From the NCBI GenBank assembly GCA_040954595.2, contig CM082592.2, forward strand, positions 9,783,677 through 9,847,676: a DNA stretch of 64,000 nt, in the 5' to 3' direction. Within the stretch, counting starts at the first letter, position 1; each line of letters begins with the position of its first letter. Below, one piece after another: positions 9,001 through 60,999 of the stretch. The notes beneath the pieces are model-generated. The model saw nothing but the letters and a program-made list of their open reading frames with translations. It was not told the origin of the DNA and ran no database searches. A program made the translations under genes and the position numbers. The DNA is from Balanoglossus misakiensis. Lineage: Eukaryota > Animalia > Hemichordata.

Positions 9001-12000
9001 CATGGGTTATAGCTCAGGAAAATGTTGAAAAATCGACCATTTTTCGACTTTGCGAATTTTCAAAATTTGGTCATTTTTTGAAAAAACCATGGGTTATAGC
9101 TCAGGAAAATGTTGAAAAATCGACCATTTTTCGACTTTGCGAATTTTCAAAATTTGGTCATTTTTTGAAAAAACCATGGGTTATAGCTCAGGAAAATGTT
9201 GAAAAATCGACCATTTTTCGACTTTGCGAATTTTCAAAATTTGGTCATTTTTTGAAAAAACCATGGGTTATAGCTCAGGAAAATGTTGAAAAATCGACCA
9301 TTTTTCGACTTTGCGAATTTTCAAAATTTGGTCATTTTTTGAAAAAACCATGGGTTATAGCTCAGGAAAATGTTGAAAAATCGACCATTTTTCGACTTTG
9401 CGAATTTTCAAAATTTGGTCATTTTTTGAAAAAACCATGGGTTATAGCTCAGGAAAATGTTGAAAAATCGACCATTTTTCGACTTTGCGAATTTTCAAAA
9501 TTTGGTCATTTTTGGAAAAAACCATGGGTTATAGCTCAGGAAAATGTTTAAAAATCGACCATTTTTCGACTTTGCGAATTTTTAAAATTTGGTCATTTTT
9601 TGAAAAAAACATGGGTTATAGCTCAGGAAAATGTTGAAAAATCGACCATATTTCGACTTTGCGAATTTTCAAAATTTGGTCATTTTTTGAAAAAACCATG
9701 GGTTATAGCTCAGGAAAATGTTGAAAAATCGACCATTTTTCGACTTTGCGAATTTTCAAAATTTGGTCATTTTTTGAAAAAACCATGGGTTATAGCTCAG
9801 GAAAATGTTGAAAAATCGACCATTTTTCGACTTTGCGAATTTTCAAAATTTGGTCATTTTTTGAAAAAACCATGGGTTATAGCTCAGGAAAATGTTGAAA
9901 AATCGACCATTTTTCGACTTTGCGAATTTTCAAAATTTGGTCATTTTTTGAAAAAACCATGGGTTATAGCTCAGGAAAATGTTGAAAAATCGACCATTTT
10001 TCGACTTTGCGAATTTTCAAAATTTGGTCATTTTTTGAAAAAACCATGGGTTATAGCTCAGGAAAATGTTGAAAAATCGACCATTTTTCGACTTTGCGAA
10101 TTTTCAAAATTTGGTCATTTTTTGAAAAAACCATGGGTTATAGCTCAGGAAAATGTTGAAAAATCGACCATTTTTCGACTTTGCGAATTTTCAAAATTTG
10201 GTCATTTTTTGAAAAAAACATGGGTTATAGCTCAGGAAAATGTTGAAAAATCGACCATTTTTCGACTTTGCGAATTTTCAAAATTTGGTCATTTTTTGAA
10301 AAAACCATGGGTTATAGCTCAGGAAAATGTTGAAAAATCGACCATTTTTCGACTTTGCGAATTTTCAAAATTTGGTCATTTTTTGAAAAAACCATGGGTT
10401 ATAGCTCAGGAAAATGTTGAAAAATCGACCATTTTTCGACTTTGCGAATTTTCAAAATTTGGTCATTTTTTGAAAAAACCATGGGTTATAGCTCAGGAAA
10501 ATGTTGAAAAATCGACCATTTTTCGACTTTGCGAATTTTCAAAATTTGGTCATTTTTTGAAAAAACCATGGGTTATAGCTCAGGAAAATGTTTAAAAATC
10601 GACCATTTTTCGACTTTGCGAATTTTCAAAATTTGGTCATTTTTTGAAAAAAACATGGGTTATAGCTCAGGAAAATGTTGAAAAATCGACCATTTTTCGA
10701 CTTTGCGAATTTTCAAAATTTGGTCATTTTTTGAAAAAACCATGGGTTATAGCTCAGGAAAATGTTTAAAAATCGACCATTTTTCGACTTTGCGAATTTT
10801 CAAAATTTGGTCATTTTTTGAAAAAACCATGGGTTATAGCTCAGGAAAATGTTGAAAAATCGACCATTTTTCGACTTTGCGAATTTTCAAAATTTGGTCA
10901 TTTTTTGAAAAAACCATGGGTTATAGCTCAGGAAAATGTTGAAAAATCGACCATTTTTCGACTTTGCGAATTTTCAAAATTTGGTCATTTTTTGAAAAAA
11001 ACATGGGTTATAGCTCAGGAAAATGTTGAAAAATCGACCATTTTTCGACTTTGCGAATTTTCAAAATTTGGTCATTTTTTGAAAAAACCATGGGTTATAG
11101 CTCAGGAAAATGTTGAAAAATCGACCATTTTTCGACTTTGCGAATTTTCAAAATTTGGTCATTTTTTGAAAAAACCATGGGTTATAGCTCAGGAAAATGT
11201 TGAAAAATCGACCATTTTTCGACTTTGCGAATTTTCAAAATTTGGTCATTTTTTGAAAAAAACATGGGTTATAGCTCAGGAAAATGTTGAAAAATCGACC
11301 ATTTTTCGACTTTGCGAATTTTCAAAATTTGGTCATTTTTTGAAAAAACCATGGGTTATAGCTCAGGAAAATGTTGAAAAATCGACCATTTTTCGACTTT
11401 GCGAATTTTCAAAATTTGGTCATTTTTTGAAAAAACCATGGGTTATAGCTCAGGAAAATGTTGAAAAATCGACCATTTTTCGACTTTGCGAATTTTCAAA
11501 ATTTGGTCATTTTTTGAAAAAACCATGGGTTATAGCTCAGGAAAATGTTGAAAAATCGACCATTTTTCGACTTTGCGAATTTTCAAAATTTGGTCATTTT
11601 TTGAAAAAAACATGGGTTATAGCTCAGGAAAATGTTGAAAAATCGACCATTTTTCGACTTTGCGAATTTTCAAAATTTGGTCATTTTTTGAAAAAACCAT
11701 GGGTTATAGCTCAGGAAAATGTTGAAAAATCGACCATTTTTCGACTTTGCGAATTTTCAAAATTTGGTCATTTTTTGAAAAAACCATGGGTTATAGCTCA
11801 GGAAAATGTTGAAAAATCGACCATTTTTCGACTTTGCGAATTTTCAAAATTTGGTCATTTTTTGAAAAAAACATGGGTTATAGCTCAGGAAAATGTTGAA
11901 AAATCGACCATTTTTCGACTTTGCGAATTTTCAAAATTTGGTCATTTTTTTGAAAAATCCATGGGTTATAGCTCAGGAAAATGTTGAAAAATCGACCATT

Positions 12001-13835
12001 TTTCGACTTTGCGAATTTTCAAAATTTGGTCATTTTTTGAAAAAACCATGGGTTATAGCTCAGGAAAATGTTGAAAAATCGACCATTTTTCGACTTTGCG
12101 AATTTTCAAAATTTGGTCATTTTTTGAAAAAACCATGGGTTATAGCTCAGGAAAATGTTGAAAAATCGACCATTTTTCGACTTTGCGAATTTTCAAAATT
12201 TGGTCATTTTTTGAAAAAAACATGGGTTATAGCTCAGGAAAATGTTGAAAAATCGACCATTTTTCGACTTTGCGAATTTTCAAAATTTGGTCATTTTTTG
12301 AAAAAACCATGGGTTATAGCTCAGGAAAATGTTGAAAAATCGACCATTTTTCGACTTTGCGAATTTTCAAAATTTGGTCATTTTTTGAAAAAACCATGGG
12401 TTATAGCTCAGGAAAATGTTGAAAAATCGACCATTTTTCGACTTTGCGAATTTTCAAAATTTGGTCATTTTTTGAAAAAACCATGGGTTATAGCTCAGGA
12501 AAATGTTGAAAAATCGACCATTTTTCGACTTTGCGAATTTTCAAAATTTGGTCATTTTTTGAAAAAACCATGGGTTATAGCTCAGGAAAATGTTGAAAAA
12601 TCGACCATTTTTCGACTTTGCGAATTTTCAAAATTTGGTCATTTTTTGAAAAAACCATGGGTTATAGCTCAGGAAAATGTTGAAAAATCGACCATTTTTC
12701 GACTTTGCGAATTTTCAAAATTTGGTCATTTTTTGAAAAAACCATGGGTTATAGCTCAGGAAAATGTTGAAAAATCGACCATTTTTCGACTTTGCGAATT
12801 TTCAAAATTTGGTCATTTTTTGAAAAAACCATGGGTTATAGCTCAGGAAAATGTTGAAAAATCGACCATTTTTCGACTTTGCGAATTTTCAAAATTTGGT
12901 CATTTTTTGAAAAAACCATGGGTTATAGCTCAGGAAAATGTTGAAAAATCGACCATTTTTCGACTTTGCGAATTTTCAAAATTTGGTCATTTTTTGAAAA
13001 AACCATGGGTTATAGCTCAGGAAAATGTTGAAAAATCGACCATTTTTCGACTTTGCGAATTTTCAAAATTTGGTCATTTTTTGAAAAAACCATGGGTTAT
13101 AGCTCAGGAAAATGTTGAAAAATCGACCATTTTTCGACTTTGCGAATTTTCAAAATTTGGTCATTTTTTGAAAAAACCATGGGTTATAGCTCAGGAAAAT
13201 GTTGAAAAATCGACCATTTTTCGACTTTGCGAATTTTCAAAATTTGGTCATTTTTTGAAAAAACCATGGGTTATAGCTCAGGAAAATGTTGAAAAATCGA
13301 CCATTTTTCGACTTTGCGAATTTTCAAAATTTGGTCATTTTTTGAAAAAACCATGGGTTATAGCTCAGGAAAATGTTTAAAAATCGACCATTTTTCGACT
13401 TTGCGAATTTTCAAAATTTGGTCATTTTTTGAAAAAACCATGGGTTATAGCTCAGGAAAATGTTGAAAAATCGACGATTTTTCGACTTTGCGAATTTTCA
13501 AAATTTGGTCATTTTTTGAAAAAACCATGGGTTATAGCTCAGGAAAATGTTGAAAAATCGACGATTTTTCGACTTTGCGAATTGTCAAAATTTGGTCATT
13601 TTTTGAAAAAACCATGGGTTATAGCTCAGGAAAATGTTAAAAAATCGACGATTTTTCGACTTTGCGAATTTTTAAAATTTGGTCATTTTTTGAAAAAACC
13701 ATGGGTTATAGCTCAGGAAAATCATCCAGAAATGACAATTTTTCGACTCTCCGAAATTTCAAAATTTCTTTATTTTTTCGAAAAAATCATGGGTTATAGC
13801 TCATGAAAATCATCCAGAAATGACAAATTTTCATA
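1..13835. repeat. 87-bp tandem satellite DNA array (about 159 monomers in window; continues off the left edge)
   Basis: Monomer AAAAAACCATGGGTTATAGCTCAGGAAAATGTTGAAAAATCGACCATTTTTCGACTTTGCGAATTTTCAAAATTTGGTCATTTTTTG is repeated head-to-tail with few variants. The last ~1.3 monomers (from ~13720) are degenerate. Confidence 0.99.
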
Positions 13836-26295: not shown

Positions 26296-27849
26296 TTAGC
26301 TAATGAGAAAAGCTCCTATGCTAATGGTGAACTGTGTTTGGGGATCAATATTTCCGATTTCTATTGCCACTGCTTGTGTTGAAGGCAAAGTAACGGCACG
26401 GTGGTCATTCCTTAAGCTCTTGATGCCTCCATATGGGTACTGCTCATGTCTTGGCGGAGGCTCAGACTGGAGTATAGGTCTGGGGCTAAAGAACTGGGAC
26501 CCATCCCAATCTTCATCACACTGGGCCATCATCATGGCGGCACGAGCATGGAGCGGCACTCGCATGTGTCTCAGTGCTTCATGGCCCATGTACTCACCAG
26601 TGTGCCAAAGCTGTTGCCTGGGCCCTCGCTGGACAACCCCTGTGCTCCTGTAGACACCTAGGTTGCTGCCATCCCTGGCATTGGTGAGCACATACACCTT
26701 GTACTTTTTCTCGACGTGGTCTTCGCTGGGAAAGACTCTCAGTAAGAGACCCGAGCCGGTGACTTGACAGACTCCCGTCCAGTGGCTGCCGCGGGATTTG
26801 GACGGGCCGGAGAATGCATCCGTTGGCACGAAACGGATCTCCCAGAGAATGTTATTTCGGTCGGGTCGTCTGCAAGCGCTAGCCAGCACCACCGATCGCT
26901 GCTGGTGGCAGAAGTGCGGCGAGCTGTAGCAGCGAGGCAAGTGCTCTTCCCCTTTGAACTCGTTCCTCATGGTCTGAACCAAGGCGTGAAAGCGGTACGC
27001 CTCTGCGATGAGTGGTTTCACCAGCTCCGGGAACCTCTTCGCCAGGTCCGTCTCCTCGATTGCGTACAGCTTGTGCGGATCAATCTGGGAGAAGCGAATC
27101 CACTTCATGAGCTGTTTGGTATTCTCCTCGAGTTCGTCCCGCCTATCAGGCACCAGCAGCCACTTCTGGACGAGAATGAAGAGCGCAAATTCGTCTTCCA
27201 CGACAACATCCGAACTCTGCAATATTTCGCTCATAAAGTCAACATCAAGAGCAAGCCACTCCTCTGTCAGAACGACACTGTCCAACTGAGACAGGATGAC
27301 CTCCAGACACTTCTCACTCAGACCTTTGAGGTCAAACTTCCGTGCGTACGACAGCCACCGCATGGCACCCTTGATGTTTCGCTTATCCACTTTGTTAGTC
27401 ATGTACTCTGAGCAGATCCTGCGAAGATCTTTGACGTTATATTTATCCGCTAAAAACAACAGTGGCATGACAGACTGAACGCTGAAAGTGGTCGATCCCC
27501 TGTACAGGAATGTCAGAAATTCAGAAAAACACTTGGCACAGTCATCAGACTCCTCAAGCTTGACTTCACCTTGCTGTGATTCCCCCCAATTTGAGCTAGT
27601 CAGCATGATTTTGAAGACATCACTTGACTTGCACAGCATAAACTTGTGGGCATAAAACCTCTGGTCGCCGACTACGAGTGTGATGTCGCTCAATTCAGAA
27701 TTGTTGTAAAACGAACCAATCTCTGCAGCAAACCCTTCAAGCGAGCCATGAACTTCAACATCTGTTTCTGGGGGGTCTGGCTTAACACAGGCACTGCAAT
27801 GATGTGCTGCAGCGCTGCTACTGCTGCAGTCTTCATCGGATGAGGACAT
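26296..27849 (-). CDS. BTB/POZ-BACK domain protein (BTBD17-like), single coding exon
   Basis: 517-aa ORF with SDITLVVGDQRFYAHKFMLCKSSDVF (BTB), LFLADKYNVKDL, BACK-like EEWLALD...EDEFALFILVQKWL...WIRFSQI, and a PRCY motif. Confidence 0.9.
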   Translation of the reverse strand: MSSSDEDCSSSSAAAHHCSACVKPDPPETDVEVHGSLEGFAAEIGSFYNNSELSDITLVVGDQRFYAHKFMLCKSSDVFKIMLTSSNWGESQQGEVKLEESDDCAKCFSEFLTFLYRGSTTFSVQSVMPLLFLADKYNVKDLRRICSEYMTNKVDKRNIKGAMRWLSYARKFDLKGLSEKCLEVILSQLDSVVLTEEWLALDVDFMSEILQSSDVVVEDEFALFILVQKWLLVPDRRDELEENTKQLMKWIRFSQIDPHKLYAIEETDLAKRFPELVKPLIAEAYRFHALVQTMRNEFKGEEHLPRCYSSPHFCHQQRSVVLASACRRPDRNNILWEIRFVPTDAFSGPSKSRGSHWTGVCQVTGSGLLLRVFPSEDHVEKKYKVYVLTNARDGSNLGVYRSTGVVQRGPRQQLWHTGEYMGHEALRHMRVPLHARAAMMMAQCDEDWDGSQFFSPRPILQSEPPPRHEQYPYGGIKSLRNDHRAVTLPSTQAVAIEIGNIDPQTQFTISIGAFLIS

Positions 27850-27956
27850 TATTGTCTCTGCTTCAGCGAGATTCTTGCAAGATCTTTAAAACCTGCATAT
27901 TACATATGAAATTTAAAGACTATTAAATTCTGATGCACAACATAAAACATTGTTGT

Positions 27957-46257: not shown

Positions 46258-47186
46258 TTTTTGTAGCTTCAATTCAATTCAAACGACACACAGGACCACT
46301 TCTTTGCTTTTCTCGGGATCGGGGGACTGGTATGTAATCGGAGAAGTAAGTGTATCAACGTTTGCTTCGTAATCGGACACACAGGTGAGTGCCACGGACT
46401 TTTATGCGGATAACGTGTAAAGTGCGCACGCGTAAAATGGGTTAAAATCATAACGCACAGAAGAGAGATTACGGGGCGGGGTTAAATAAGTCACGTGTTC
46501 GGTAAACGCAATTTCTTACATTTGGGTGAGGGAATACCGTGCGCAAATTCTCACTGAGATTTGAAGGAGCATTTTCAATGCGAGAACTAGAATTCATAGC
46601 TCAATATCTCTATAACACTTCCACACTTTCAGGGGAGGGAGGGGGATTCAGATCAAACGCAATGAGATGCCTTTATCTTTTGCACATGTTTTATTACACC
46701 TTGACATATGCTGCTCTTATGTCACCGCGAGAGGTGAGCTGACATAATACAATTTCACCACCCCGGCGCTCGGCTGTCAGTAAAACCAACGAATATTTAT
46801 ACCTGTGTACCGCTCACCTATGACACCGCTTGGGTTGCATTGTAATAAGACACAGCACAAATACAGAATAGCAAAAATGACGTGGGTAGTTTGGGTTCAT
46901 TATTACATGCATTTTCAATACCTGTGTGTTTTACCCGGAATGAAAAATGTACATTTCAGATTATCATTTAAATTTTGTTGAAATTTGTCGAAATTTTATA
47001 TAGGTCTATCTCCACATTTCTTACTGGGAAACGTAAATCAATAAACAAATAGATAAAAAAAATGCCCTTTGATTCCTACAAGGGAAAAAGTTTGGGAATT
47101 TCGTTGACTGGTTTACGGAGAATACATTGTGTAGTTACTGAGAATGTGTTACGTAATGTGTACGCTGACCATGGATTGTGTGAAAC

Positions 47187-47219
47187 CATAGACAGTGGAG
47201 AAAAGACGGACGTGCTACT
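47187..47219 (+). repeat. Left terminal inverted repeat (33 bp)
   Basis: Exact reverse complement of 56470-56502; begins with CAT like P elements. Confidence 0.96.
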
Positions 47220-48863
47220 GCCGCAGACAACAAAGGAAAACGGCGATAATCCGGGAGCAACGTCTGTTGGGTAACGGCCCGGTAATACCCATGTTGCAAC
47301 ACCGTGTAAACAGTCAGTCGCCATCTTGGATTTGACCGTACCGCATCTACTACGCGTGTTCCCTTTTTGCCATTGTTTTTCGTTTTTCCCCTGGTTCCTT
47401 TACCCCGTGCCTGTTGTTCGACCAGTTATACATCTAGTAGGTAAGTGTGTTTAGTTTTTTTTGTGTAGATAGTTACCTTCGATGTAAAATACAATCGCTG
47501 GTCGTCATGTTTGACTACTCGTGTCCACATATGTAGCGATATGTGAGCATAGACAGTGGCTATGGTGTGAGTTTACCCCTTTTACGACAAATTTATGACA
47601 TGAAACAGAAAATCGTTTTTTTGTGATCAATCTTTAGAATGTCAGCATTTGCAATGGGGATTTTGTTTGTGGCTAAATGTGACAGAAACGTCGTTTTTAT
47701 GGGGGGAAATATTTGTTTGGGACGCCTATTTCCGACCAGTTTGTCTTTGCTGAGGTGCAGAAAAGTGCGATTACGTAGTCAGATTTCTTCATAATTTCGG
47801 GTTTGTGGCTATCTTTGTTTGTCGTTATGGTGTACATATTGTAATAATATAAAAAATACGACTTGTGTTTTTAAATTCGTGCGTTTTTATGTAGAATTAC
47901 CTCGTGAGGCCTCGTACGTTTGTCGGGTAGGGTGAGTGCGTCATTAGTGTTACGTTTCCCCCTTTTGAGATAAATTCGTAACAAAAAACAGAAAGTTGTA
48001 TATATGTAGTCGTCCTTTAGGATGTTGGGATTTGCAACATGAATGTTTCGTGTGCCTAGCTTGCCCAGAAATGGTTTTATCGGACGGGAAATATGGTGTT
48101 GTCGCGTCAGCGGGCGCCATCTTTCTTCCCGTAATTCCCTATTGAATACACTGCTCTTTGTTTAGAAAGAAACTTGGTACAGCAACTCCAGCTGTTGTGT
48201 ATCCGGTCATTTTTGCGTACTTATCACCGATCGGGGATTGTGTATAGTCATCGAAAAAAACATGTCACGAACGGACAATTAATCTGTTTGAAGTCAATAT
48301 TTTGCATGGTGATTTTTTTGTATATCAATGCCAGAAAGACAATTTGTACATTTTTTTTGAGTGATGACCTTTGGGTGCCAGGTCACATTTGATTTGGGTC
48401 ATCCATGAACTTAGCCTTGAGTTCTAAGATAGACAGTGGCTCAACTGTGTCTGTTCATGGACTTGAGATGTTTGATGATTCTAACAATTTAAAGCTGTGA
48501 AAAGACAGATTAGTTTTTAATGTACAGTGGAGCTTGTTTTGTTATTTCATAGGCTATTATAATGATTTATGTGGGACTGCAACAACAAAGCCTGTGGTTA
48601 TTGAGTTATTTGATCACAACTTCATGCATTATCAAAATTTCTGTTAATTAAAATCAATCAATATTCCGAGCTTTTTTTTACCAAGGCGCAATATCATTGT
48701 TGGCCTGCAATTCTGCTACCAGATCAAAAACATTTTTCCTAGTATCCATAAGGCCTTAAGTTTTGAAAACTATTTATTTAGGTAAGGTGCATGCATATAC
48801 AATATTATCTTCCGATATTTCAGTGAGCTTATTCTTTCTTTTCTATTCTAACAGAATACTGTC

Positions 48864-51800
48864 ATGCCCTACAAGTATGGTATCAGTCAGCACAGGAAGA
48901 ATTATAAAAAGAATAAAACTAGACGATCGAAAGAGAAAAAGAAGAAGCTGCTGGATAATGAGAATCAGGCTTTGGTTGATTCACCAGATTGTCATGAGTG
49001 TGAACCTGCACGTGTTGAAAACCTTAATGACTGTGTAGATGAACTGTCCTGCTCCAATGTGATCCCCAGTGTCGATGAACAGCTACTATGGCTTAACACT
49101 GTGGAAGCACTGAATGGTTTGTCACAGCAAGAAAACACTACAACCGTAACAACTGCTGAACATGGTATGTCAGACATATCCCAAAGCCAGGACATTCACA
49201 AGCCAGATTTTCAAGAAAGCAACGATGTGCCACCCATGGTTGTCCTGCAAGCAAACCCCCCTCCACTGTCGGCGTTCGGAAGATATAGACACCAAGAACA
49301 TGTTGACAAGCAATCGCAAGTCCATCCTGCTAGATCATCCAGTTTTCCGGGACTAAATGTTGGCTCTTACATGCCAATGAATTTTGAAGCGATCCGAGCT
49401 GTCCTGAAGACCTGTTGCCTACCAAAAGGATGGGTAGACCAGTCAGACAACTCTCAACTGAACTTCCTGTTTGTCCAGTCCCAAGTTGGTCAGGAGTCGG
49501 TGATCATGAAGTCACTTACAGTCCAGCAAGATGGCTCATGGCAAGTACGAGTCTTCGGCCAAGTCATGGATGTCAAGACAGTTTTTCCCCAATATCCTAC
49601 TCTGCTCCAAAGTCCTTCTGTTGTCCTGTCAGTAGTCCAAGAAATTCATGAAAGGCGCATCTGTTCGGGAAATCCTGATGAAAAGTTCTGGTCAGTTCCA
49701 GAGATCCAGAATGGTAGAGGACTTACTGGGCAAATGGTTCGTCAGCAGGTACTGCTTGAAGGCGAAGGAGGCAAATGGTATAACACAACCCTGCGAGCGG
49801 CCAACTGTGAATTGACCACCAGCAAAGTTCGATGCAGCCCGTGCGAGCAGCTAAGGAAAACAATGTTTGCTGTGCTTAGCAGACAGAAGAGGAGAAATGC
49901 AGGTAGCCATGAAGACGATCCAGCAGCCCATAGAGTACATGCCAGTAGCTCTGTCCCGCTATCAGCTTTAACAGCTGATGAACTTTACCAGAGAACACAC
50001 AATATAATAAAAGCAAAACGCCGAGTAGAAGCCAGTGAAGCCAGGCTGAGAGTAAAGCTGCAGGAGAGCATCAATCAAGAAGGGGAGTGTTTGGATAGTG
50101 AGACCTCATCAAGTATGAAGCAGATCATAAGTGAATATGATAGCGTCATACAGGAAGAAAATACAGAAGGGACATTTCGCAGGTTGTTTTGGGAACAGCA
50201 AAAAGAAGCCCTTCGATGTGCTGATAAACGAGGCCATCGCTGGCACCCAATGTTTATAAAATGGTGTTTGAATCTGCGTTTACGATCGAGTGCAGCATAC
50301 AACACATTACGGGACTCTGGTGTTCTTGAATTACCCCATGAAAGAACACTTATTGATTACACGCACTGGACTAAGGCAACCACTGGTTTCACAGAAGCAG
50401 CCTTTGATCAGCTACTGCGAGAAAGTAATTTCAGCCAGCTGGAAGAACACCAGAAGTATGTTGTCCTTCTTCATGATGAGTTGCGCATCTCCTCCGATCT
50501 GGTTTATGTCAAGAGTAGTGGCCAACTCATTGGCTTCGTCAACATTGGGGACTTCAGCAATTCGCTCATGTTGTATGAGAAGACCCTGAAGACTGATGGT
50601 CAGAAACCAACTCCTGAAGTTGCCCGCTACATCCTTACTTTCATGGTTAGAGGCATAACACTCAGGCTCCAGTATCCACTAGCCCATTTTCCCACAAACA
50701 CCATAACGGCAGACTATCTTTTCCCCTTGATATGGAGAGCAATTGAATTTCTAGAACTAATAGGGTTCAGAGTAATGGCTTCTACTTCTGATGGTGCGTC
50801 AGCTAACAGGCGATTTTATAAGCTGCATGCAATGGGACCAAGGGCTGCTGCAGACGTTGTCTACTGGACCGAAAACTACTGTACAGAAGAGGACCGGCGG
50901 ATATATTTCTTTTCAGACGTACCACACCTAATGAAAACCACTAGGAATTGTTGGTCAAATTCGGGATGCCATTCAAAGAAAAGAATGTTATGGGTAAAAG
51001 CCTATTATAATTCTGTACTTTTTACAGTGTGTATAGAAACAAATATTTAGCTTTTTTCTTATTATCTTATTATTGCCATTATGCTTATATGTAAATAATT
51101 TATGCAAAAATATATCAAGATCTTATAAAGTTTTAATAAAAACAATGGGTCATTTTTTATGTTAATTAATGATTGCATTTTCCTTTTTTTTCTCACTTAG
51201 AATGGTGAACCGATCAACTGGCAAACTGTCATTGATATGTACAAAGCAGATCTGGAAAGAGGAGGATTGTTTCTCTGCAACAAGCTGAGATATGAACATG
51301 TGCATCTAACATCTTTCTCCAGGATGAAAGTGAAGTATGCTGTTCAAGTAAGTAATTTATTTCCATTTGTTAAATATTTTCCCACAATACAGTTTATTAG
51401 CAAGGTCTTGAGATCTGTGTTTGACACCACATAGAAGAGATAATGTTAGGTCATATATCATGATAATAAGATATGTTGTGTGATGCAAGTGAATTGTCTG
51501 ATCATCCTGCTATTATAAAATTAATACAAGATGGCAATTGTGAAACAGAAAAGTGATATATTTTTATATCTACTTGCTCACAGGTGCTTAGTACACAAGT
51601 GGCAAATGCCATAGAGACATTCTATGGCAATGGTCACAGAGCCACCATTGAATTTATACGACATTTTGACAAGTTCTTTGATTGTATGAATGTTCGAAGT
51701 ACCAAAGAAGGCATACAAAAGAGGAAACCGAATCTGTTGCCCTACAGATCACCAGACGATGAAAGACTGACTGTAAGTATATGTATCTGTATATGTCTTT

Positions 51801-53121
51801 AATTTATGTTCAATAACCTATTGTCATGATGTAAAAAAATACCATCTCATATTTCCTGTTGTCTATAACATACATGCATTCCGGCATTATTCATTATATC
51901 AGTACATTTTTCATTTAAGACACAAGCCTCTCTGCCAATTAAGGACAAGAGATGCTGTGAACAGTGTAGCATATTTCACAAAGAATTTTAGTTCTGTTCA
52001 TTCGGTAGTAAAAATGAATTGTGAAGGGAGAGCTTTCCGCTGCCTTATATATGTATGCATATAACTTTGAACTTTGATAAGACATATTCAGAAATTGATA
52101 GGTATAATAGGATCAAGTTATGAGCTGCAATGTACATGTTAATGAAATAAAATATTGTGATTTCTTCACATTTCAACCCATCTAGTGGCTTGAGGGTGAG
52201 TTCCTGACATATCTTAGCGACTGGGATGCTAGAGTTGATGCCAGAGTTCATCTGTCAAAACGGGACAAAGGCCGCATGAAGCTAAGTCAACAAACCTTGG
52301 AAGGTATCCGCATGTCAGGTAAATAACATAAAATCATAGACAGTGGAAATCTTGTGCCACTGTCTGTAATAAAATATATCAATATTTTGTCTTTATAATT
52401 TACTTCATTCTCTAATTTTTTAATCACTCCCTGTGGAATGTTAATTCTCATTGTAACTGAGGAGGCACTGTTAATACAACCAAGTGTGTGTTAGTGGCAA
52501 CCCCTATAATGAGAATTTGTCTCTAGTAAGTTTTCACTTTGGTTGGCTATAATCTCTCTGTCCAAAAAGACCAATTTGAAACGGTGGCTTTACAGGCTGC
52601 TTGGCTGGTAAAAAATGCTGTGAGTGCAAAATATTTTTTAATTATCAAACCGTACTAAAATGCAAGCAAAAATTAATGAAGAGTTACTGAGTGCTAGTGT
52701 AACCTGCCAATTTAACAAATCCTGTACATGGTATTGTGATGTTGTTGTACACTATTTATTACGACCACTGAAATCCTTCCCTTACTAACCATCCTATACT
52801 GCATTCTTTTTATTCCATTCTACAGTGAAGTCATTTGTTGACTTGGCAAGGTACCTACTCAACCAACCGGGTGTGGAGTGTGTTCTCTCAGAGAAACTCA
52901 ACCAGGATCCTTTGGAGTCCTATTTCGGGAATCAACGCCAAATGAAGGGTGGGAATGAGGCACCCTCAGTGCAACAGTTCTGCCAAAATGCCAATGCTCT
53001 TCGGCTGAAGTCTTCACACGTTTTGTCTGTGAGAGGAGCCAATGTTACAACAATGGCTGATGCGCCGCTGGATAACACAGCACTGCCAAGACGTTCCCAT
53101 ACCAGACATTCACATCCGTAG
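48864..53121 (+). CDS. P-element/THAP9-family transposase (5 coding exons, ~964 aa, no THAP domain seen)
   Basis: Exons 48864-50993, 51201-51347, 51584-51772, 52186-52318 and 52826-53121 total 2895 nt with an open frame. Motifs: RWHP..IKWCLNLRLRSSAAYNTLR...LPHERTL, LLHDELRI (D), STSDGASAN (D), FSDVPHLMKTTRN (DxxH), RMKVKYAVQV, FDKFFDCMN, LNQDPLESYFGNQR (E). Confidence 0.95.
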
Positions 53122-53213
53122 GACTGTTTGAATTTATCTCAGTGGATATGTCACAGAAATTGTTATGTTGAGATGAATGAGTAATAGCAGATGACAGTGA
53201 GATTTATGTCACA

Positions 53214-53472
53214 CTCTGACATTAGCTGTAAGTTTCTGTTCTGGGTACCAAACATTTAAGATACACAGAACAGAAATAGTGAGCGAACAGTCGTTGTTGA
53301 TGTTTTTTTTTGGGGGGGGGGGGGAATTTCAGTGGGCAATGAATTTTCTTTACTTTCACTGGAATTCATTAGTGAACAAACAGTCCTTTTTTACCCTCTG
53401 ACATTAGCTGTAAGTTTCTGTCCTGGGTACCAAACATTTAAGATACACAGAACAGAAATAGGAGCGAACAGT
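53214..53472 (+). repeat. ~78-bp direct repeat (53214-53291 and 53396-53472) between the convergent transposon genes
   Basis: CTCTGACATTAGCTGTAAGTTTCTGT.CTGGGTACCAAACATTTAAGATACACAGAACAGAAATAG.GAGCGAACAGT occurs twice. Confidence 0.9.
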
Positions 53473-53901
53473 TTTTGTTGTTTTTTTTTTTCACTCGAAT
53501 CCATTGTTGCTGAAAACTGATGTTGTTGTTGCCGCCGGTGATGCCATCATCCATTCAATGAGTCATTGCTTTCAAAGTTTAGTTGGAGAACAACACTGTT
53601 TTATTTTTTCTGTAAAATATTTTAGGTGTGTATGCATACCTCTCAGAACAGTTTCTGTTGGTGGAGTAAAAAAATCTGAATCATTCATCATTGGAGGATT
53701 ATGCTCTGTGTACTGTTAGAGGATCACATTCACTGTTAAAAGCACACTCTTACGAAATACACTGTACTGCAATTTATTCTTTATTACTCAACACATGCTA
53801 GTACATTTTTCAATCTTAAACGTGTACATGTTCAAAGAAAATTTTCAACCTGACAGTTTACAATATATGGTGCAATAAATAATGGTCGGATTTGACAAAC
53901 T

Positions 53902-56235
53902 TTACTTGTTGTCATCTGTATTAAGCTGTTTAAGTTCTTTTCGAAGTGCTTTCTGACTACGATTCTTCATTCCCTCAGTATATTTAAGGCCCTCAACTAA
54001 TTTCCTAGCTGCAGAATGGCCTCTGATATTGATCCACATTTTACTACACATTAACATCAGCTTCAATGACTGACCCTCATCAAGGCCTACAGATAATTGT
54101 GACCAGTGCTGCACTGCAGCTGCATCACCTGTAACATCCTTGCTTACTAAATCGTGAATGTTTAAATCACCACTGGTAAAAAGGGCCTTGTTGTGTTTCC
54201 TTACAAAATACTCTACCCTCCTAAAAAACATATAAGTTGTGTCATTCACAGTGTACAGACCGCCCCGGTTCTCTTTGTTGACCCATTCTGTTGTGTAAGA
54301 CAAAAATGTTGATACAGGCTGAATTGTACTCATACCCTCCAAACACTTTACCATGCTTCTAAACCCTGATCCACGTTTCTGAAGTTGAGATATGAGAGCC
54401 ATAGGGATGTAACCACAGGCATACCTCAGAATGTTTTCTTCAACACGACTCATATCCCCGCTGAAGCTCTCATCAATTGTGGTGACCTTTTCCCTTTCTA
54501 AAACTAAACCTTCAAAAATGTGCCTGGCTAAAATCATGAGAACAGGTCCTGATACTGTCAACCCAACTTTTGAACAAAGCTTGTGTAGACATTTCCGTAA
54601 TTCTGGATCCAGGCGCAAAGAGTGGAATATGCGAAACATCTCTTCTCGGCGCCGCGAAGGAAGGAACTGTCTGTCTCCTCCAGTAACAGCAGGCCACAGC
54701 ACTTGTATCACTGCATCCAGTTCACTTTTTACACTTACTGGATCACTTGACAATGTATCACACAGTTTCTTTGCAACAACTTTAACTTTGGAAACACCAG
54801 GTAATCTAGGACTGTTGAAAATGCTGTCAACGGTGAGTGGTTTGATTGAGGCTAGAAGGATCCGTTGGGCTTCCTGCGTTGCATCATCCATTGTCATTTG
54901 TAGTTTCCTGGTGGGTCTGTTCTCTGTGGGGAAAAATATTGTTATAGTTGATTGGTCAGTGACACTGGTGCCCGACAACAAAAATGAAAAGAAAGTTTTA
55001 TCTTACATATTCAGAATAACGCCACAGTAACTGTAAATTGCCACCACTGTTTTGCCAATATTTATGATGGAAAGCAAAACAGTGAAATTTCCCCCAAAGT
55101 GGCAGCATAGACAGCTATGAAACTGTGAGTGTCCCTTTTAAGTATGGGAGTACTGTTTCTCTACTGTCTTTGTCTCACATTAGAAATGAAATCATATTTT
55201 GAAAGATAAATAATCACAGTTACTAAATATGTGTTCTTAGCTTACCTTTGTTGTTAATCTTCTTGGAAACCCCAGCTCCTTTCAAAACGTTTTTCTTTGG
55301 ATCACAGTCTGTTCTTTTCACCATGTCTGGTCCTGGAAAGGAAAAATGATCAATAATGAGTTGTGAGCACGACAGGGATAGAATAATAATAAAATGTTGA
55401 TAATGGAGGGAAAATACAGAGAAATGTTTCTGGCATCAACAGTAATAATCAATGGCTGCCTAGTGTCTATGGTATTTTGAAATATGTCTGAAGTGTTTTA
55501 CTCATAACACTTTTATTTCATTTTAACATAATATAGCATATCTTTCTTTACTTGTATTTCCAGTTTTTCATTTTAGTTAGTTGTTAGAAAACTTGTGGCA
55601 CAGTTGTATGTCTGATCCTGATCAGCTTAGACAATGTAAACTACCAAGGGAAATTGCTACCATTAACTTGAAGGGGACCCATTAGTCTGCTTTGCCCATA
55701 TTCATAACAATCTGTTTATCTGTGCAGCCCATATGTTGCTCATTTTTTTCGCATGACATTTTTGGCCTTGAAAAACATTCTTCATTCATATCCATGCTTG
55801 GCGACGATCATTATGATTATGGGATGTCTTTAAAAATCATAGACAGTAAAAATGTACAGGTACCAGGCGGTGTAGTTTCAGCTTGTGACCAACGCCTTGC
55901 TCCACATTTCGATCAACAAAATAGCAGTAAAACTTACCGACTAGCCCATGGCCATTTATCAAATGCTGCTTGCAACTCTGCTTTCTGTTGAAAGTTTTGT
56001 CACAAACGTCACATTTGATAGTTTTTGTATCACCACCGACGCAAACGATGTATCGATCAAGATAGCTCAAGTCTCGACGTTTAGGAGCTTGCTGCATGCC
56101 TTCTTGTAACTCGTCGTCGGTAAGTGGCGATGTATCATCGTCGTCGCTAGTCTCGCTCCCTGAATAATCGAAATCGCTGTATTCGGAATCAGTAAAAACG
56201 GCAACAAATTCGCTATCGGTTTGGACGGAAGCCAT
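53902..56235 (-). CDS. Transposon second gene: acidic N-terminus + C2H2 zinc finger + P-transposase-CTD-like domain (3 exons, ~468 aa)
   Basis: Exons 56235-55938, 55332-55246 and 54923-53902 (phase-1 GT-AG introns, 1407 nt, open frame). Motifs CDVCDKTFNRKQSCKQHLINGH and EENILRYACGYIP...EWVNKENRGGLYTV. Confidence 0.85.
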
Positions 56236-56469
56236 TGTGTATGTGCTGCGAGCCGCTTGTAAACAACTTATGACCTGTGACCCGAATCTCGCCAAATAAC
56301 GTCTCGCGTAGCACGAAATATTACGCTTTTTCTCGTGGTAACTCTCGCGTTTTGCGATATTATGCGAGGTTTTATCGCCAGACGGCGATAAAGAGGTGAT
56401 GATGAGTTTGTCTATTGTTTGGTGGATTAAAAGGGATTACAACAGACGTTACTACAAAAGAAATGCACT

Positions 56470-56502
56470 AGTAGCACGTCCGTCTTTTCTCCACTGTCTA
56501 TG
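56470..56502 (-). repeat. Right terminal inverted repeat (33 bp)
   Basis: AGTAGCACGTCCGTCTTTTCTCCACTGTCTATG followed by the TSD GTGAAAC. Confidence 0.96.
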
Positions 56503-57058
56503 GTGAAACCGAGCGTCGGTTCCCGGATGATACTTGTACTTTGTATAGGTGGGGTTCAGTCATGTTGTTATCTGGTGACTTCGACATTGGGACTCGGAGC
56601 GCCTGGTGAAAATAATGATATTGCTATCGGCGGACGTGAGTTTCCTCATTGACATCATTCAAGCCACCGTATGTTTGCATTGATGCGCCGATAATCAGTA
56701 AATCCGGGTAGATAGCGCGACTGACAAAACAAATCAAAGTACATGTATACGTATGGCCTATGTATGCAAATATCAGTCATACTCATGTAAATAAAATAAC
56801 TAATATTATGTCAAGTGACAAGCTCCTGTCTTTGTGGTGTGTTTCTAGTACCTCCATGGTTTCGCAGGGTGTTTTACTTTGGAAAATATATGTTTTCTAC
56901 TTTCTTCAAGTTTCAGCCCGATAGAAGACCTACATGGCAGGCTTCTCTTTTATATTTCGACATGCTTTACCACTGTAATCGTGGCCTTTTGGACAGCCGT
57001 AAGCTAGCATCATATCTAGCCCTAGATATTGATTGAAAGAACAAATAATAGACCAAGA

Positions 57059-57210
57059 ATCGCAGTTGGCGTTGTGTGAATCACGCTACTGGATTTGTGC
57101 GGTTCGCGACGTGCGCCACCAAGTGCGTCAGTACATCGCAGTTGGCGTTGTGTGAATCACGCTACTGGATTTGTGCGGTTCGCGACGTGCGCCACCAAGT
57201 GCGTCAGTAC
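57059..57210 (+). repeat. Perfect 76-bp tandem duplication
   Basis: ATCGCAGTTGGCGTTG...GTGCGTCAGTAC at 57059-57134 and 57135-57210. Confidence 0.93.
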
Positions 57211-58868
57211 ACGCAGTTCGAGAGTGGTGCATTGTGGGATCGAAACATCAGGTGATACGCAGAGTCACATGATTACTCATCAAGATGGCAATAGAATGAT
57301 CTGAAATGCACAACAAAATTCCTCAGCAGCTGCCGTAGTGTGATTTTATGTTTAATTAAGGTGAGTTTCAACGAATTTGACGTTTTTTTGCAATCAGTGA
57401 CACTGTGTCTTCTGGCAGTGCCAAGTTATGTTTCAGATGGGTTCCTACAAGCAACAATTGACGCCCATATCCATGTAGACAGTCAACCGGCAGCCGGTTT
57501 GACTACATGTAGTTCGACGATCTATGTGGACTTGTGTGGCAGCGGTTCTCGCTTGATTGATTGTACGCAATCAGATTAATGCCCCAGTTGTTCAATGTCG
57601 ACAACCCTTCCCCATTCTGTAATTCAAACACTGAATGAACCTGCTGCAGTTTGTAAGTCTTTCGTTTCGCCACCGTTGCCATCCACATTATGCGGGCGTA
57701 AACGATTTTATTGTGCGATCAATCACTTCAGTCTTTCACTTCAAAACATGTCCAAATTTCTTGGAATACTTGTAATAAATGCTCGTATAGCTGTTATCAA
57801 TTCGTATAGACTATAGTGTTGTCCGTAATGTTATGAATTTTTGAATGCCACAGACTACATGCAGATATTTGTCTGCAAAGTACATACACGAATGGCTGGC
57901 AACAGCCGGCTACCGCCCACAACTACTGCCCACATATATCCATGTACTGTGGACCAGTCTAGTCCACATAAAATCAGATGACGTTGACAGTCAAATTATT
58001 GCACAGCTCGGCTTTAGAATATTTCTACTGTCAGCATATGTATTTTTCTTGTAGATTTGAATATACAACAAATATTACAATTGTGAGGACTATTGAGATT
58101 TTGTGTAATTGTAGAATTTGGCCTTGCTTGTCAACCCAATATTCAAGGTTTTTGTTTTACATTGAAGGAAAGGTCCTTTGAATTATCATACCTTCACATG
58201 ACCTTGTTTCGGAGCAAGACCCCTGCATTGCATCCATGAACTTTGACCAGTGTCAGTGATGATGAAAATTTTGAGCCCAGTCCGATAAAGTTTTGACTAA
58301 AGTGTTATGTACCCTTTCCAAGTGATTGTCTCGTAAAAATGAGGAAATCCAGCAAAGCAGGAAGTAAAAGCAGGTGCTTTGTGTTTTTCATTCGAGACAA
58401 CGAAACTGAAACTATTCAGTCTTTGAATACCTGATTATGACTACAGTCGGAGAGTGTGGAAATCCCCAAAATGGAAACAGAAGCAGGAATTCCCCAATAT
58501 CTGTGAAACACATAGTTACCATATGAACAACGTTGCACTGACTTCAAAATTATGCAGGCTATTTCTGTCATGGTAAAGATAATTGCACACAAAATTTATT
58601 TGTTAATACAGCTGTTTCAGTGTGTATTTGCATAGAGGGGATTAGTGTTGCGGAGGTATAAATTTACATGCATGATGTCAGAATCGTGATGTATGATATT
58701 CCCTGGCATAAAATACTGGACAAAAAAGGATTTATGAAATAGTCCTCGCTGCACATTACATGTAATAAATGTGAAGTTCATTTTCACTTTATACTCATCC
58801 TCATAGCTGTAATGTGACCATTCTTTTCTGCGTTCCCCAGAAGTAATGATTTTCAATAAAAACACAAG

Positions 58869-60999
58869 ATGACAACCAACAAGAAGAAGAAGGGTTTCCA
58901 CGTCAACGAGTCAGAGCTCCTGTGCAAGAATGGCTGTGGTTTCTACGGCAACCAAGCCTGGCAAGGATTCTGCTCCAAGTGCTACAGGGATGTGTATCAG
59001 AAGGCGCGAGAGGCGCAGATAGAAAGCGATGCTCTCAAGGAAACAAGGTAAACTGGAAATTTTGAAATAAAAGTAGATTAGACATGCAGCAGAAGCATTG
59101 TCTGCATTGGCCATATGTGAAAAAAAGAACAAAATCTGAATAGATCATGATTCATGAAGCAGATGGGAGCTTTTTCCTGCGTTGTAATCTCAATATATAA
59201 TTCAGAAGCCTAGTTCATCTCCAGTCTGACTTAGACACCAGTGTCTCGACTCTTTCCAGACTTGCCGCAAGGCAACCAGTGCCAGGTGCCACCAACGGAG
59301 AATCCAACCTGGCATTCAACAAGTTTGAAGAGAAGAGGAAACAGCACCAGGCGCCCAAGACAAAAACCGTCAAGACGTTCTTCAAGAAAGGTGCCCAAGT
59401 GCCAAACAAAGATTCCGCTCACCCATGGACCGGGCAGAGACAGCCCAGCATGGAGAGCCAGCAGGCTGCCACCGACTTCACAGAGTTCCTCAAGGCTTTA
59501 AAGAAACCGGCAGCTCAGGACATTTCCAGGCAGTGCCGTGCCGTCATCGAAAAACTCCAGGAGCAGGAGGATCTGCCGATTGAAGACCAGTCAGAAATCA
59601 TCCAGGATTTTTATCTGAACATGAATGAGAGACTGCAGGCACATTCCTCGTTTAAAGGTACAGTGTAAATTTACCGGAAGTATTTTTTATGTTCACACTA
59701 AAATGAATCATTTTGCATGACTACATAGTGAGATCTTTTCTAAAATATGAATACCGGTAACATCGTCTTGTTTACTGAACCACAAATGTTTTGTTTCTTG
59801 TCAGGTTCCACTCCAGAGCAACACGAGAAAATGATGGACAACATGGAGAAGTTCATCATGACTCGTCTTTACAAGACTGTATATTGTCCACCATTCTGCG
59901 ACGACGAACAGAAGGACTTAGCCATTCAGAACAGAATACGTAGACTGCACTGGATATCAACCGAGATGATTGATGCTGATATCGATGATAAAAAGGCTGA
60001 AGTGATAGAGTACATAGAAAAAGCACAGACAGGTATGGAGAAAATGTCTTAGAGGTGAAATTTATCTTAATGTTTCCAAGGAGACTTTAGTTGATTTTTA
60101 GAACTATCCGCAAGACAAACTACCAACTAATGAAGGTTTAGTCACCAAAGGAATATACAATATAACCAAAACTCTTTTTTTTCACAGATATTATAGAAAT
60201 GAACTCGCGGCGTTCTCCAGCCGACAAGCTGAGCTGCATTGTCCGCTGCAGTAAGAACATCTTCACTGTGCTTCGGATATCCAAGGGACAACCAGCAAGT
60301 GCCGACGAGTTCCTGCCGGTGTTGATCTACATCATCCTGAAGGCCAATCCGCCTCAGCTACACTCTAACATCCAATACATCACCCGCTTCAGTCATCCCA
60401 GCAAGTTGATGCAAGGCGAGGCTGGCTACTACTTCACAAATCTGGTAGGTGGCACAATGTTTGGGACATTGTGGTCTGGTGGTGATAGTTTGGTGGACTG
60501 TCTGATTATAAGAGTGATCGATATGATCTAGAATGGTGCTGTAGCGTTTTGTGGCATATAATCAGTTATAAATGATACTTATTTCATCTTTTTGCTTGAT
60601 CTTCTGCAGTGCTGCGCGGTCACTTTCATCGAGAATCTCGATGCCCAGTCTCTGTCCCTGACCCAAGAAGAGTATGACCGCTACATGTCCGGAGAGGTCA
60701 CACCCCAAGGCACCGAGTACGGCGAACCCATATGCGAAGGACTCAGACTGATGTACGCCAACTTAGCCACGTTAGACGAACTTCGCTTGCGCCAAGACAG
60801 GCTTCGGGAAAACGCCCTGAGTCTTCAGAGAGAAATTCAAGACTTCAGAGACAGTGTGGTCAAGGCAGTGCAGGATGTTCTGACAAACAAACCACTTATT
60901 ATCAACAAGCCAAAGCAACCGGCAAATATAGACCAGGATAGTGGCAATGAAACAAACTTACTTCCACCTCCTCTTCAGCCAGAGGTTGTTGCCAAATGA
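58869..60999 (+). CDS. RABGEF1: Rab5 GDP/GTP exchange factor Rabex-5 (5 coding exons)
   Basis: A20 zinc finger [31 protein letters not shown], helical bundle, VPS9 domain PADKLSCIV...[12 protein letters not shown]...[14 protein letters not shown], coiled coil, and C-terminal [10 protein letters not shown]. Confidence 0.97.

What the first reader, a model, noticed from the sequence alone, without database searches (positions are those of the whole stretch)
48864..56235. Two-gene P-like transposon: apparent split transposase, with the C-terminal domain encoded by a separate convergent C2H2 gene
Seen: inside one TIR/TSD-bounded element are two intact spliced genes facing each other. Gene 1 has the full P-type DDE core but stops ~65 aa after the catalytic NQDPLE motif. 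Gene 2 (minus strand, ~468 aa) has an acidic N-terminus, a C2H2 finger and EENILRYACGYI...W...NRGGL. Known (from recall): P/THAP9 transposases normally carry an N-terminal THAP domain and a C-terminal domain with a YIAGY...RGGL-type motif in the same polypeptide, and canonical P elements are single-gene. Inference: the C-terminal domain has become a separate subunit with its own zinc finger, giving a two-component transposase or a dedicated helper/regulator.
Basis: partly seen in the sequence, partly recalled or inferred. Interest (0 to 1): 0.88.

Follow-up and report, generated by a model that had tools for sequence, protein, structure and literature searches.

The report
Two-gene P transposon, detached tail domain
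This is an intact, recently inserted P-type jumping gene whose cutting enzyme lacks the usual tail domain, while a second, facing gene inside the same element makes that tail domain as a separate protein that likely rejoins the enzyme as a partner subunit, a layout shared with related elements of other marine invertebrates.

Summary
Observation confirmed. The element spans 47187-56502, with a 33-bp perfect TIR and a 7-bp TSD; the empty site and other flanks occur in sequencing runs. Gene 1 (964 aa) has a complete P-type RNase H/GTP-insertion core, no THAP domain, and ends 67 aa after the catalytic E. Of 17 homologues that reach that E, 14 end 60-72 aa later and none later, so the short end is a clade trait. 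Gene 2 (468 aa, convergent) contains the P-transposase C-terminal domain (CTD): its top fold match among 48,161 chains is the Drosophila CTD (Z 8.3, 113 of 118 residues), and 13 of 117 relatives weakly hit Tnp_P_element_C. It heads a stand-alone family of about 5,100 clusters. A convergent transposase end lies beside it in 3 of 6 other loci, and the Glandiceps homologues have consecutive gene numbers. Correction: the C2H2 finger is optional (4 of 153 relatives). Binding between the two proteins is untested, and a preprint reports that CTD-less fly transposase still works, so subunit (0.6) versus regulator (0.25) is open. Verdict: a new variant of P elements, not found in nine literature searches.

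The parts
47180..47186 (+). left target-site duplication (7 bp, GTGAAAC)
   Evidence: identical to 56503-56509; empty site with one copy in X1 and X2
47187..47219 (+). left terminal inverted repeat, 33 bp
47346..47440 (+). non-coding 5' exon of gene 1 (start approximate); no ATG, two in-frame stops just before the spliced ATG
   Evidence: X3 joint 47438 to 48853, GT..AG at cut +2, and a contig end at 47346
48864..50993 (+). gene 1 coding exon 1 (aa 1-710): N-terminal region, four-Cys module, coiled coil/HTH region (inferred), RNase H N-half with D538, D643 and D685xxH688
   Evidence: (PF21787 E 2.6e-24)
49392..49910 (+). N-terminal module in place of THAP: RWD/UBC-like alpha-beta fold (weak match) plus C267, C315, C324, C327, invariant in 97 of 97 aligned sequences
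   Evidence: no Pfam hit
51201..51347 (+). gene 1 exon 2, GTP-binding insertion domain
   Evidence: PF21788 E 1.4e-4
51584..51772 (+). gene 1 exon 3, GTP-binding insertion domain
   Evidence: PF21788 E 4e-6; donor confirmed by X3 joint
52186..52318 (+). gene 1 exon 4
   Evidence: both junctions in X3
52826..53121 (+). gene 1 last exon: RNase H C-half, catalytic E897 in NQDPLE, 67-aa tail, stop
   Evidence: (PF21789 E 5.9e-7)
53902..54923 (-). gene 2 exon 3: helical domain (aa 130-283), P-transposase CTD homologue (aa 284-440), basic terminal helix
53989..54459 (-). stretch that superposes on Drosophila P transposase CTD residues 617-734
   Evidence: Z 8.3, rmsd 3.1, 113 of 118 aligned
55246..55332 (-). 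gene 2 exon 2 (basic linker)
   Evidence: exon 2-3 joint in X3
55938..56235 (-). gene 2 exon 1: acidic N-terminus and C2H2 finger (aa 74-96)
   Evidence: matched by the N-termini of P0002 and P0003
56470..56502 (-). right terminal inverted repeat, 33 bp
56503..56509 (+). right target-site duplication

Best explanation
This is a recently inserted, expressed P-superfamily DNA transposon of a widespread clade in which the transposase gene ends after the catalytic core and a convergent second gene encodes the C-terminal domain as a separate protein, which likely works as a partner subunit of the transposition complex. Shown: ends, TSD, empty site, both reading frames, four splice joints, the CTD homology, the clade-wide short end of gene 1, and convergent pairing in other elements. 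Inferred: gene 1 binds and cuts the ends with its DDE core and GTP-binding insertion, using a four-cysteine module in place of THAP. The gene 2 protein would dock where the fly CTD sits, between one subunit's RNase H domain and the other's GTP-binding domain, hold the looped-out transferred strand, and reach target DNA with its basic terminal helix. Its added helical domain would replace the lost covalent linker as the docking surface. The acidic stretch and C2H2 finger are lineage-specific add-ons. The subunit may raise efficiency or targeting without being strictly required.
For: Top fold match of 48,161 chains is 6p5a_B, the DmTNP CTD (Z 8.3, rmsd 3.1, 113 of 118 aligned; next Z 6.5). Tnp_P_element_C is the most frequent Pfam family among relatives (13 of 117, best E 6.8e-4; the next families match 3). 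The three published TNP-CTD conserved blocks have counterparts in order in gene 2, and these hold the most conserved columns (Y296, G299, W342, RGGL 348-351, F362, E366, R429). A basic terminal motif is conserved (R456 in 109 of 117), matching the basic CTD helix that reaches target DNA in the fly structure (passage). None of 9 full-length gene 1 homologues has a THAP or CTD Pfam hit. 14 of 17 end 60-72 aa after the E, against about 220 aa in DmTNP (E531, 751 aa). None of 153 gene 2 relatives carries a transposase core. Convergent gene 1 3' ends lie in L001, L003 and L004 of 6 loci; L003 has 34 of 34 matching TIR bases. Glandiceps homologues are consecutive: XP_077999383.1 and XP_077999384.1.
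Against: A preprint reports that CTD-deleted DmTNP excises and integrates at wild-type level and that CTD-deleted human THAP9 integrates about 60% better (10.64898/2026.08.31.747927), so the domain may be regulatory. The window's own gene 2 does not hit PF12596, and the one relative shown in detail is under the curated cut-off (19.2 versus 22.6 bits). Foldseek and profile searches of the PDB did not find the CTD chain. Z 8.3 for a helical domain lies in the range the tool calls possibly a common arrangement, at 14% identity. Three of 6 loci (L002, L005, L006; 1.1-1.9 kb) show no gene 1. Linkage is unknown for nearly all of the 5,121 clusters.
Confidence: 0.6

Rival explanations
1. Gene 2 is a CTD-derived regulator: gene 1 transposes alone, and the gene 2 protein dampens or times transposition by binding the complex or the ends, in the way a repressor isoform does.
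For: The CTD is reported dispensable in DmTNP and inhibitory in human THAP9. Separate promoters allow separate control. The X3 contig over gene 2's last exon has depth 37 against 3-9 for gene 1 pieces (contig depth is a poor measure of expression). The acidic N-terminus could mimic DNA (inference).
Against: A purely inhibitory gene would be expected to be lost easily from a selfish element, yet the family spans 5,121 clusters with a tightly conserved core. The deletion data come from one preprint, using plasmid assays in HEK293 cells.
Confidence: 0.25
2. Gene 2 is an end-recognition or target-selection factor that binds DNA or chromatin on its own and recruits the THAP-less transposase, like the second protein of Harbinger elements (recalled), with the CTD fold reused as its DNA-binding unit.
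For: Gene 1 has no THAP. Hemichordate, amphioxus and anemone gene 2 proteins carry a C2H2 finger. The terminal 8-mer recurs 5 times inside the element.
Against: The finger is seen in only 4 of 153 relatives and cannot fit in L003. Gene 1 has its own invariant four-Cys module. In the fly structure the CTD makes mostly backbone and stacking contacts.
Confidence: 0.1
3. Gene 2 is a passenger or captured host gene, or the apparent split is a defect or annotation artefact of this copy.
For: Linkage was seen directly in only 3 of 6 fetched loci plus one pair of consecutive accessions. Gene 1 introns 1-2 and gene 2 intron 1 were not among the listed splice joints.
Against: The best fold match is the very domain missing from gene 1. 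Homologues from several phyla end at the same place. A contig reads through gene 1's stop unspliced. No plus-strand CTD motif lies downstream of gene 1. TIR-like termini sit upstream of gene 2 in 4 of 6 loci.
Confidence: 0.05

Closest known systems
Drosophila melanogaster P element, 87-kDa transposase (PDB 6P5A/6PE2), and vertebrate THAP9
   Same: RNase H core split by a GTP-binding insertion (only PDB sequence hit for P0154, E 7e-17); DDE and DxxH residues; TIR of about 30 bp with CA..TG ends; a CTD-fold domain is encoded by the element.
   Different: Two convergent genes instead of one; CTD on a separate 468-aa protein with an extra helical domain; no THAP, a four-Cys module instead; 7-bp rather than 8-bp TSD; 9.3 kb rather than 2.9 kb.
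1360/Hoppel and Galileo (P superfamily)
   Same: 7-bp TSD (PMC3698922 passage).
   Different: Described there as intronless; this element has seven predicted introns and a second gene. Their proteins were not compared here.
RAGL/ProtoRAG transposons (RAG1L + RAG2L)
   Same: Two convergent genes between TIRs, one catalytic and one accessory, found in hemichordates, amphioxus, molluscs and cnidarians (PMC7204232 passages). This is the closest 'works like' model.
   Different: Different transposase superfamily (Transib-related), 5-bp TSD, RAG2L is a kelch propeller unrelated to RAG1. Here the second gene is homologous to a domain of the canonical transposase itself.
Kolobok (KolX and other accessory genes) and PIF/Harbinger two-gene transposons
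   Same: A TIR element with an accessory protein besides the DDE transposase (PMC9587614 passages; Harbinger recalled).
   Different: Their accessory proteins are unrelated folds; transposase family and TSDs differ.

Membership tests
P superfamily | DDE RNase H core interrupted by the GTP-binding insertion domain | tested here: met
   PF21787, PF21788 and PF21789 in order; 6p5a_A is the best PDB sequence hit
P superfamily | catalytic D, D, E and DxxH motif intact | tested here: met
   D538, D643, D685xxH688, E897; equivalents invariant in alignment A3 wherever present (15-16 of 16)
P superfamily | TIRs with CA..TG ends and a 7-8 bp TSD | tested here: met
   33-bp TIR, 7-bp TSD, empty site; 7- and 8-bp TSDs described
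P superfamily | GTP dependence and 17-nt 3' overhangs | not testable with these tools
   needs biochemistry
P superfamily | phylogenetic placement among P, 1360, Galileo and THAP9 transposases | not tested
   no canonical full-length P or THAP9 sequence was among the proteins fetched
canonical P element / THAP9 architecture | N-terminal THAP domain | tested here: not met
   no THAP Pfam hit in gene 1 or in 9 of 9 full-length homologues; the spliced 5' exon puts in-frame stops before the ATG
canonical P element / THAP9 architecture | CTD in the same polypeptide as the catalytic core | tested here: not met
   stop 67 aa after E; none of 17 homologues runs past 72 aa; CTD fold is in gene 2
canonical P element / THAP9 architecture | single gene | tested here: not met
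   two convergent spliced genes
P-transposase CTD (PF12596; 6p5a_B) for gene 2 | CTD fold | tested here: met
   rank 1 of 48,161, Z 8.3, rmsd 3.1, 113 of 118 aligned; Foldseek did not list it
P-transposase CTD (PF12596; 6p5a_B) for gene 2 | Pfam score above the curated cut-off | tested here: inconclusive
   window protein has no hit; 13 of 117 relatives hit at E up to 0.1, best 6.8e-4; P0115 19.2 bits versus cut-off 22.6
RAGL transposons | RAG1-like transposase, kelch RAG2L, 5-bp TSD | tested here: not met
   P-type core, nearly all-helical gene 2 model, 7-bp TSD; only the convergent layout is shared
PIF/Harbinger | Myb/SANT second protein and 3-bp TSD (recalled) | tested here: not met
   no Myb/SANT family among the 25 of 60 Pfam families shown for the gene 2 alignment; 7-bp TSD

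The most novel reading that the evidence does not exclude
A large and ancient branch of the P superfamily builds its transpososome from two gene products: a THAP-less, CTD-less catalytic protein and a separate CTD subunit. This would be a second, independent case of a RAG1/RAG2-like convergent two-gene transposon in animals, but one whose partner is a domain of the enzyme itself. The one-chain fly/THAP9 form may even be the fused derivative. Thousands of 'uncharacterised' invertebrate proteins would be P-element subunits.
Probability: 0.5. Interest if true: 0.82.

Novelty: new variant of a known kind. Interest (0 to 1): 0.68.

Why it matters
The role of the P/THAP9 CTD is open: it contacts DNA in the structure, yet a 2026 preprint finds it dispensable or inhibitory. 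A natural element that makes this domain as its own protein, in an intact and recently inserted copy, makes the question directly testable by titrating one gene against the other. It assigns an origin to a large unannotated protein family (5,121 clusters), revises the single-gene picture of P elements, parallels the RAG transposon layout, and could give a two-part, separately controllable transposition tool.

Tried and rejected
No whole genome is held, so copy number and paired-copy counts could not be made. Co-folding of the Glandiceps pair P0154 (aa 425-939) with P0003 (aa 125-460) gave no answer: score 0.00, alignments unused, partner fold uncertain; it is not used for or against binding. 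The search for longer, fused forms of gene 2 found none among 7,988 candidates of 806-2,300 aa, which is weak. PDB sequence and profile searches with gene 2 and Foldseek gave nothing significant. ESM Atlas gave only hits under 0.8 for gene 2 and none for the gene 1 N-terminal module. No gene 2 relative was found in viral contigs (0 of 88 pattern matches) or prokaryote genomes (0 of 26). No RNA holder was listed; X3 is treated as transcript-derived only because its contigs skip GT-AG introns exactly. The gene 1 N-terminal module had no Foldseek match, and THAP was not listed by the wide fold search (inconclusive). A further plus-strand CTD exon was rejected: no such motif downstream. L003 has no TSD. 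The direction of change (fission or fusion) could not be tested. Nine paper searches listed no description of a two-gene P element. Repbase entries could not be seen and a review sought by DOI was not held, so the clade may already be catalogued there. The preprint's supplements were not seen; its CTD alignments may include stand-alone members.
Full report
THE ELEMENT. A 33-bp perfect inverted repeat bounds 47187-56502 (9,316 bp) and is flanked by a 7-bp direct repeat. Runs X1 and X2 (one sample; X1 may be the source of the window) each hold a contig that skips 9,323 nt, the element plus one TSD, which is the empty site. Depth in X1 is 152-168 over most of the element and 50-62 in the flanking bins. 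Two contigs of 6,081 and 3,068 nt cover it with no differences, and loose ends at 47182 (X1) and 56502 (X3) show other flanks. The tool warns that depth is not copy number, but together these fit several near-identical, recent copies.

GENE 1. Five GT-AG coding exons give 964 aa with the three TNP-like Pfam domains in order and D538, D643, D685xxH688 and E897. The best PDB sequence match is Drosophila P transposase (E 1.6e-3 for exon 1; E 7e-17 for the Glandiceps homologue). X3 contigs skip the 5'UTR intron and introns 3 and 4 exactly, and one runs through the stop to 53270. The 5' exon has no ATG and puts two in-frame stops before the start, so no THAP exon is missing. In place of THAP is a module with four cysteines invariant in 97 of 97 aligned sequences. 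It folds confidently (pLDDT 93), and its first 88 residues weakly resemble RWD/UBC-like domains (Z up to 6.3), a lead only.

THE SHORT END IS A CLADE TRAIT. A search with aa 400-710 found 217 homologues, of which 120 were listed. Of 133 proteins examined (those 120 plus 13 cluster members), 17 reach the catalytic-E motif: 14 end 60-72 aa later, three end at 10, 20 and 50 aa, and none later. They include Glandiceps, Saccoglossus, Mytilus and Pecten proteins. The other 116 do not reach the motif; 80 of 119 end at the position of intron 1 and say nothing on the C-terminus. None of 9 full-length homologues hits THAP or a CTD family. DmTNP has about 220 aa after E531. L001 shares the positions of introns 3 and 4, which points to one old lineage.

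GENE 2. Three exons give 468 aa; the exon 2-3 joint is in X3. The nearest relatives are from Ptychodera (60%), Saccoglossus (46%) and Glandiceps (38%). A profile finds 5,121 clusters at E up to 0.001. The 153 relatives held are 172-493 aa and none carries a transposase core. Named members also come from Branchiostoma, Exaiptasia and Paramuricea. Three lines tie the protein to the P CTD. First, the AlphaFold model of exon 3 (pLDDT 92) has the DmTNP CTD chain 6p5a_B as rank 1 of 48,161 (Z 8.3, rmsd 3.1, 113 of 118 residues, 14% identity; next Z 6.5). Second, Tnp_P_element_C is the commonest Pfam match among relatives (13 of 117). Third, the three conserved TNP-CTD blocks in bioRxiv 10.64898/2026.08.31.747927 have counterparts in order, at the family's most conserved columns. 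Each line is modest: Foldseek and PDB profile searches missed the match, the Z lies in the cautionary range for helical domains, and the window protein itself has no PF12596 hit. The match was predicted in advance and is exactly the domain that gene 1 lacks, so I take the homology as established. The C2H2 pattern occurs in 4 of 153 relatives. Many relatives may be single-exon calls, but in L003 the ATG is 103 nt from the TIR, so the finger is optional.

PAIRING. Of 6 metagenome loci fetched by gene 2, L001, L003 and L004 hold a gene 1 3' end on the opposite strand. The other three are 1.1-1.9 kb and show none. L003 is a degenerate 3.1-kb element with 34 of 34 matching TIR bases and no TSD. L001, L004 and L005 have a related terminal motif upstream of gene 2 (0 of 12,000 shuffled loci, with a pattern written from these loci).

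MECHANISM. In the fly strand-transfer complex the CTD hangs on a disordered linker, sits between one RNase H domain and the other subunit's GTP-binding domain, contacts the looped-out donor strand, and points a basic helix at target DNA (PMC7776569 passages). A domain that hangs on a linker and packs across subunits can plausibly be supplied in trans (inference). Gene 2 keeps a conserved basic terminal helix and adds a helical domain that could provide docking. I put a partner subunit at 0.6. Against an obligate role, the preprint reports that CTD deletion leaves DmTNP activity unchanged and raises THAP9 integration by about 60%, which supports a regulator (0.25). An independent end or target binder (0.1) and a passenger or artefact (0.05) are less likely. 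Whether the two-gene form arose by fission or is the older state was not testable.

WHAT IS KNOWN. It meets the P-superfamily tests I could run (core, catalytic residues, ends, TSD) but fails the canonical P/THAP9 architecture (THAP, fused CTD, single gene). In layout it resembles RAGL transposons (PMC7204232) without being one. Papers seen: the preprint, parts 1-4 of 5 and passages (the terms 'standalone' and 'separate gene' do not occur); passages only of PMC7776569, PMC9587614, PMC3698922, PMC7204232, PMC6431247 and PMC10824691; the rest as search listings. Nine searches listed no two-gene P element; Repbase could not be checked. This scan has noted the same layout in other genomes (e1-7857117, e1-6728889, and a helicase-linked variant e1-9221218). 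These are unchecked AI notes, not support, but they show this window is not the scan's first sighting.

VERDICT. Real, intact, clade-wide, and a new variant of a known kind; function of the second protein untested. Interest 0.68.

Noticed in passing
window 47548, 52335, 55106, 55464-55471, 55838: The terminal 8-mer CATAGACA recurs 5 times inside the element (11 in the window against 1.6 expected; four lie outside the element). The copy at 47548 matches the first 12 TIR bases and closes as a tiny palindrome. Possible internal binding sites or a host-wide motif.
   Followed up: partly
window 50505: An X3 contig leaves the sequence here and continues with the last 15 bases of the right terminus and a new flank: a candidate internally deleted, KP-like derivative lacking gene 2. 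One contig only.
   Followed up: no
window 53211-53491: A duplication with 182-bp spacing between the two stop codons; X2 has a contig lacking one unit, so copies or assemblies differ here.
   Followed up: no
window 49392-49910: The gene 1 N-terminal module has no Pfam family, four invariant cysteines and a weak RWD/UBC-like fold match. Its role is unexplained.
   Followed up: partly
L004:1443-2319 and 2437-4199: A second, degenerate gene 2 copy lies back to back with the first, with terminal-like motifs meeting near 2437: two elements end to end.
   Followed up: partly
window 1-13810: An 87-bp tandem satellite of about 157 units.
   Followed up: no
window 26296-27885 (-): Single long ORF with BTB and BACK domains; ordinary host gene.
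   Followed up: partly
window 59201-59668 (+): Exon-like ORF with a DUF5601 match; host gene.
   Followed up: partly
window 57059-57218: An exact 76-bp tandem duplication in the right flank; an X1 loose end at 57135 suggests an allele with one unit.
   Followed up: no
P0292 (cluster of P0140): A Saccoglossus model named 'Mucin-5B-like' begins with a gene 2 homologue (E 9e-60) followed by a low-complexity tail: a mis-annotation or a fusion to a host gene.
   Followed up: partly
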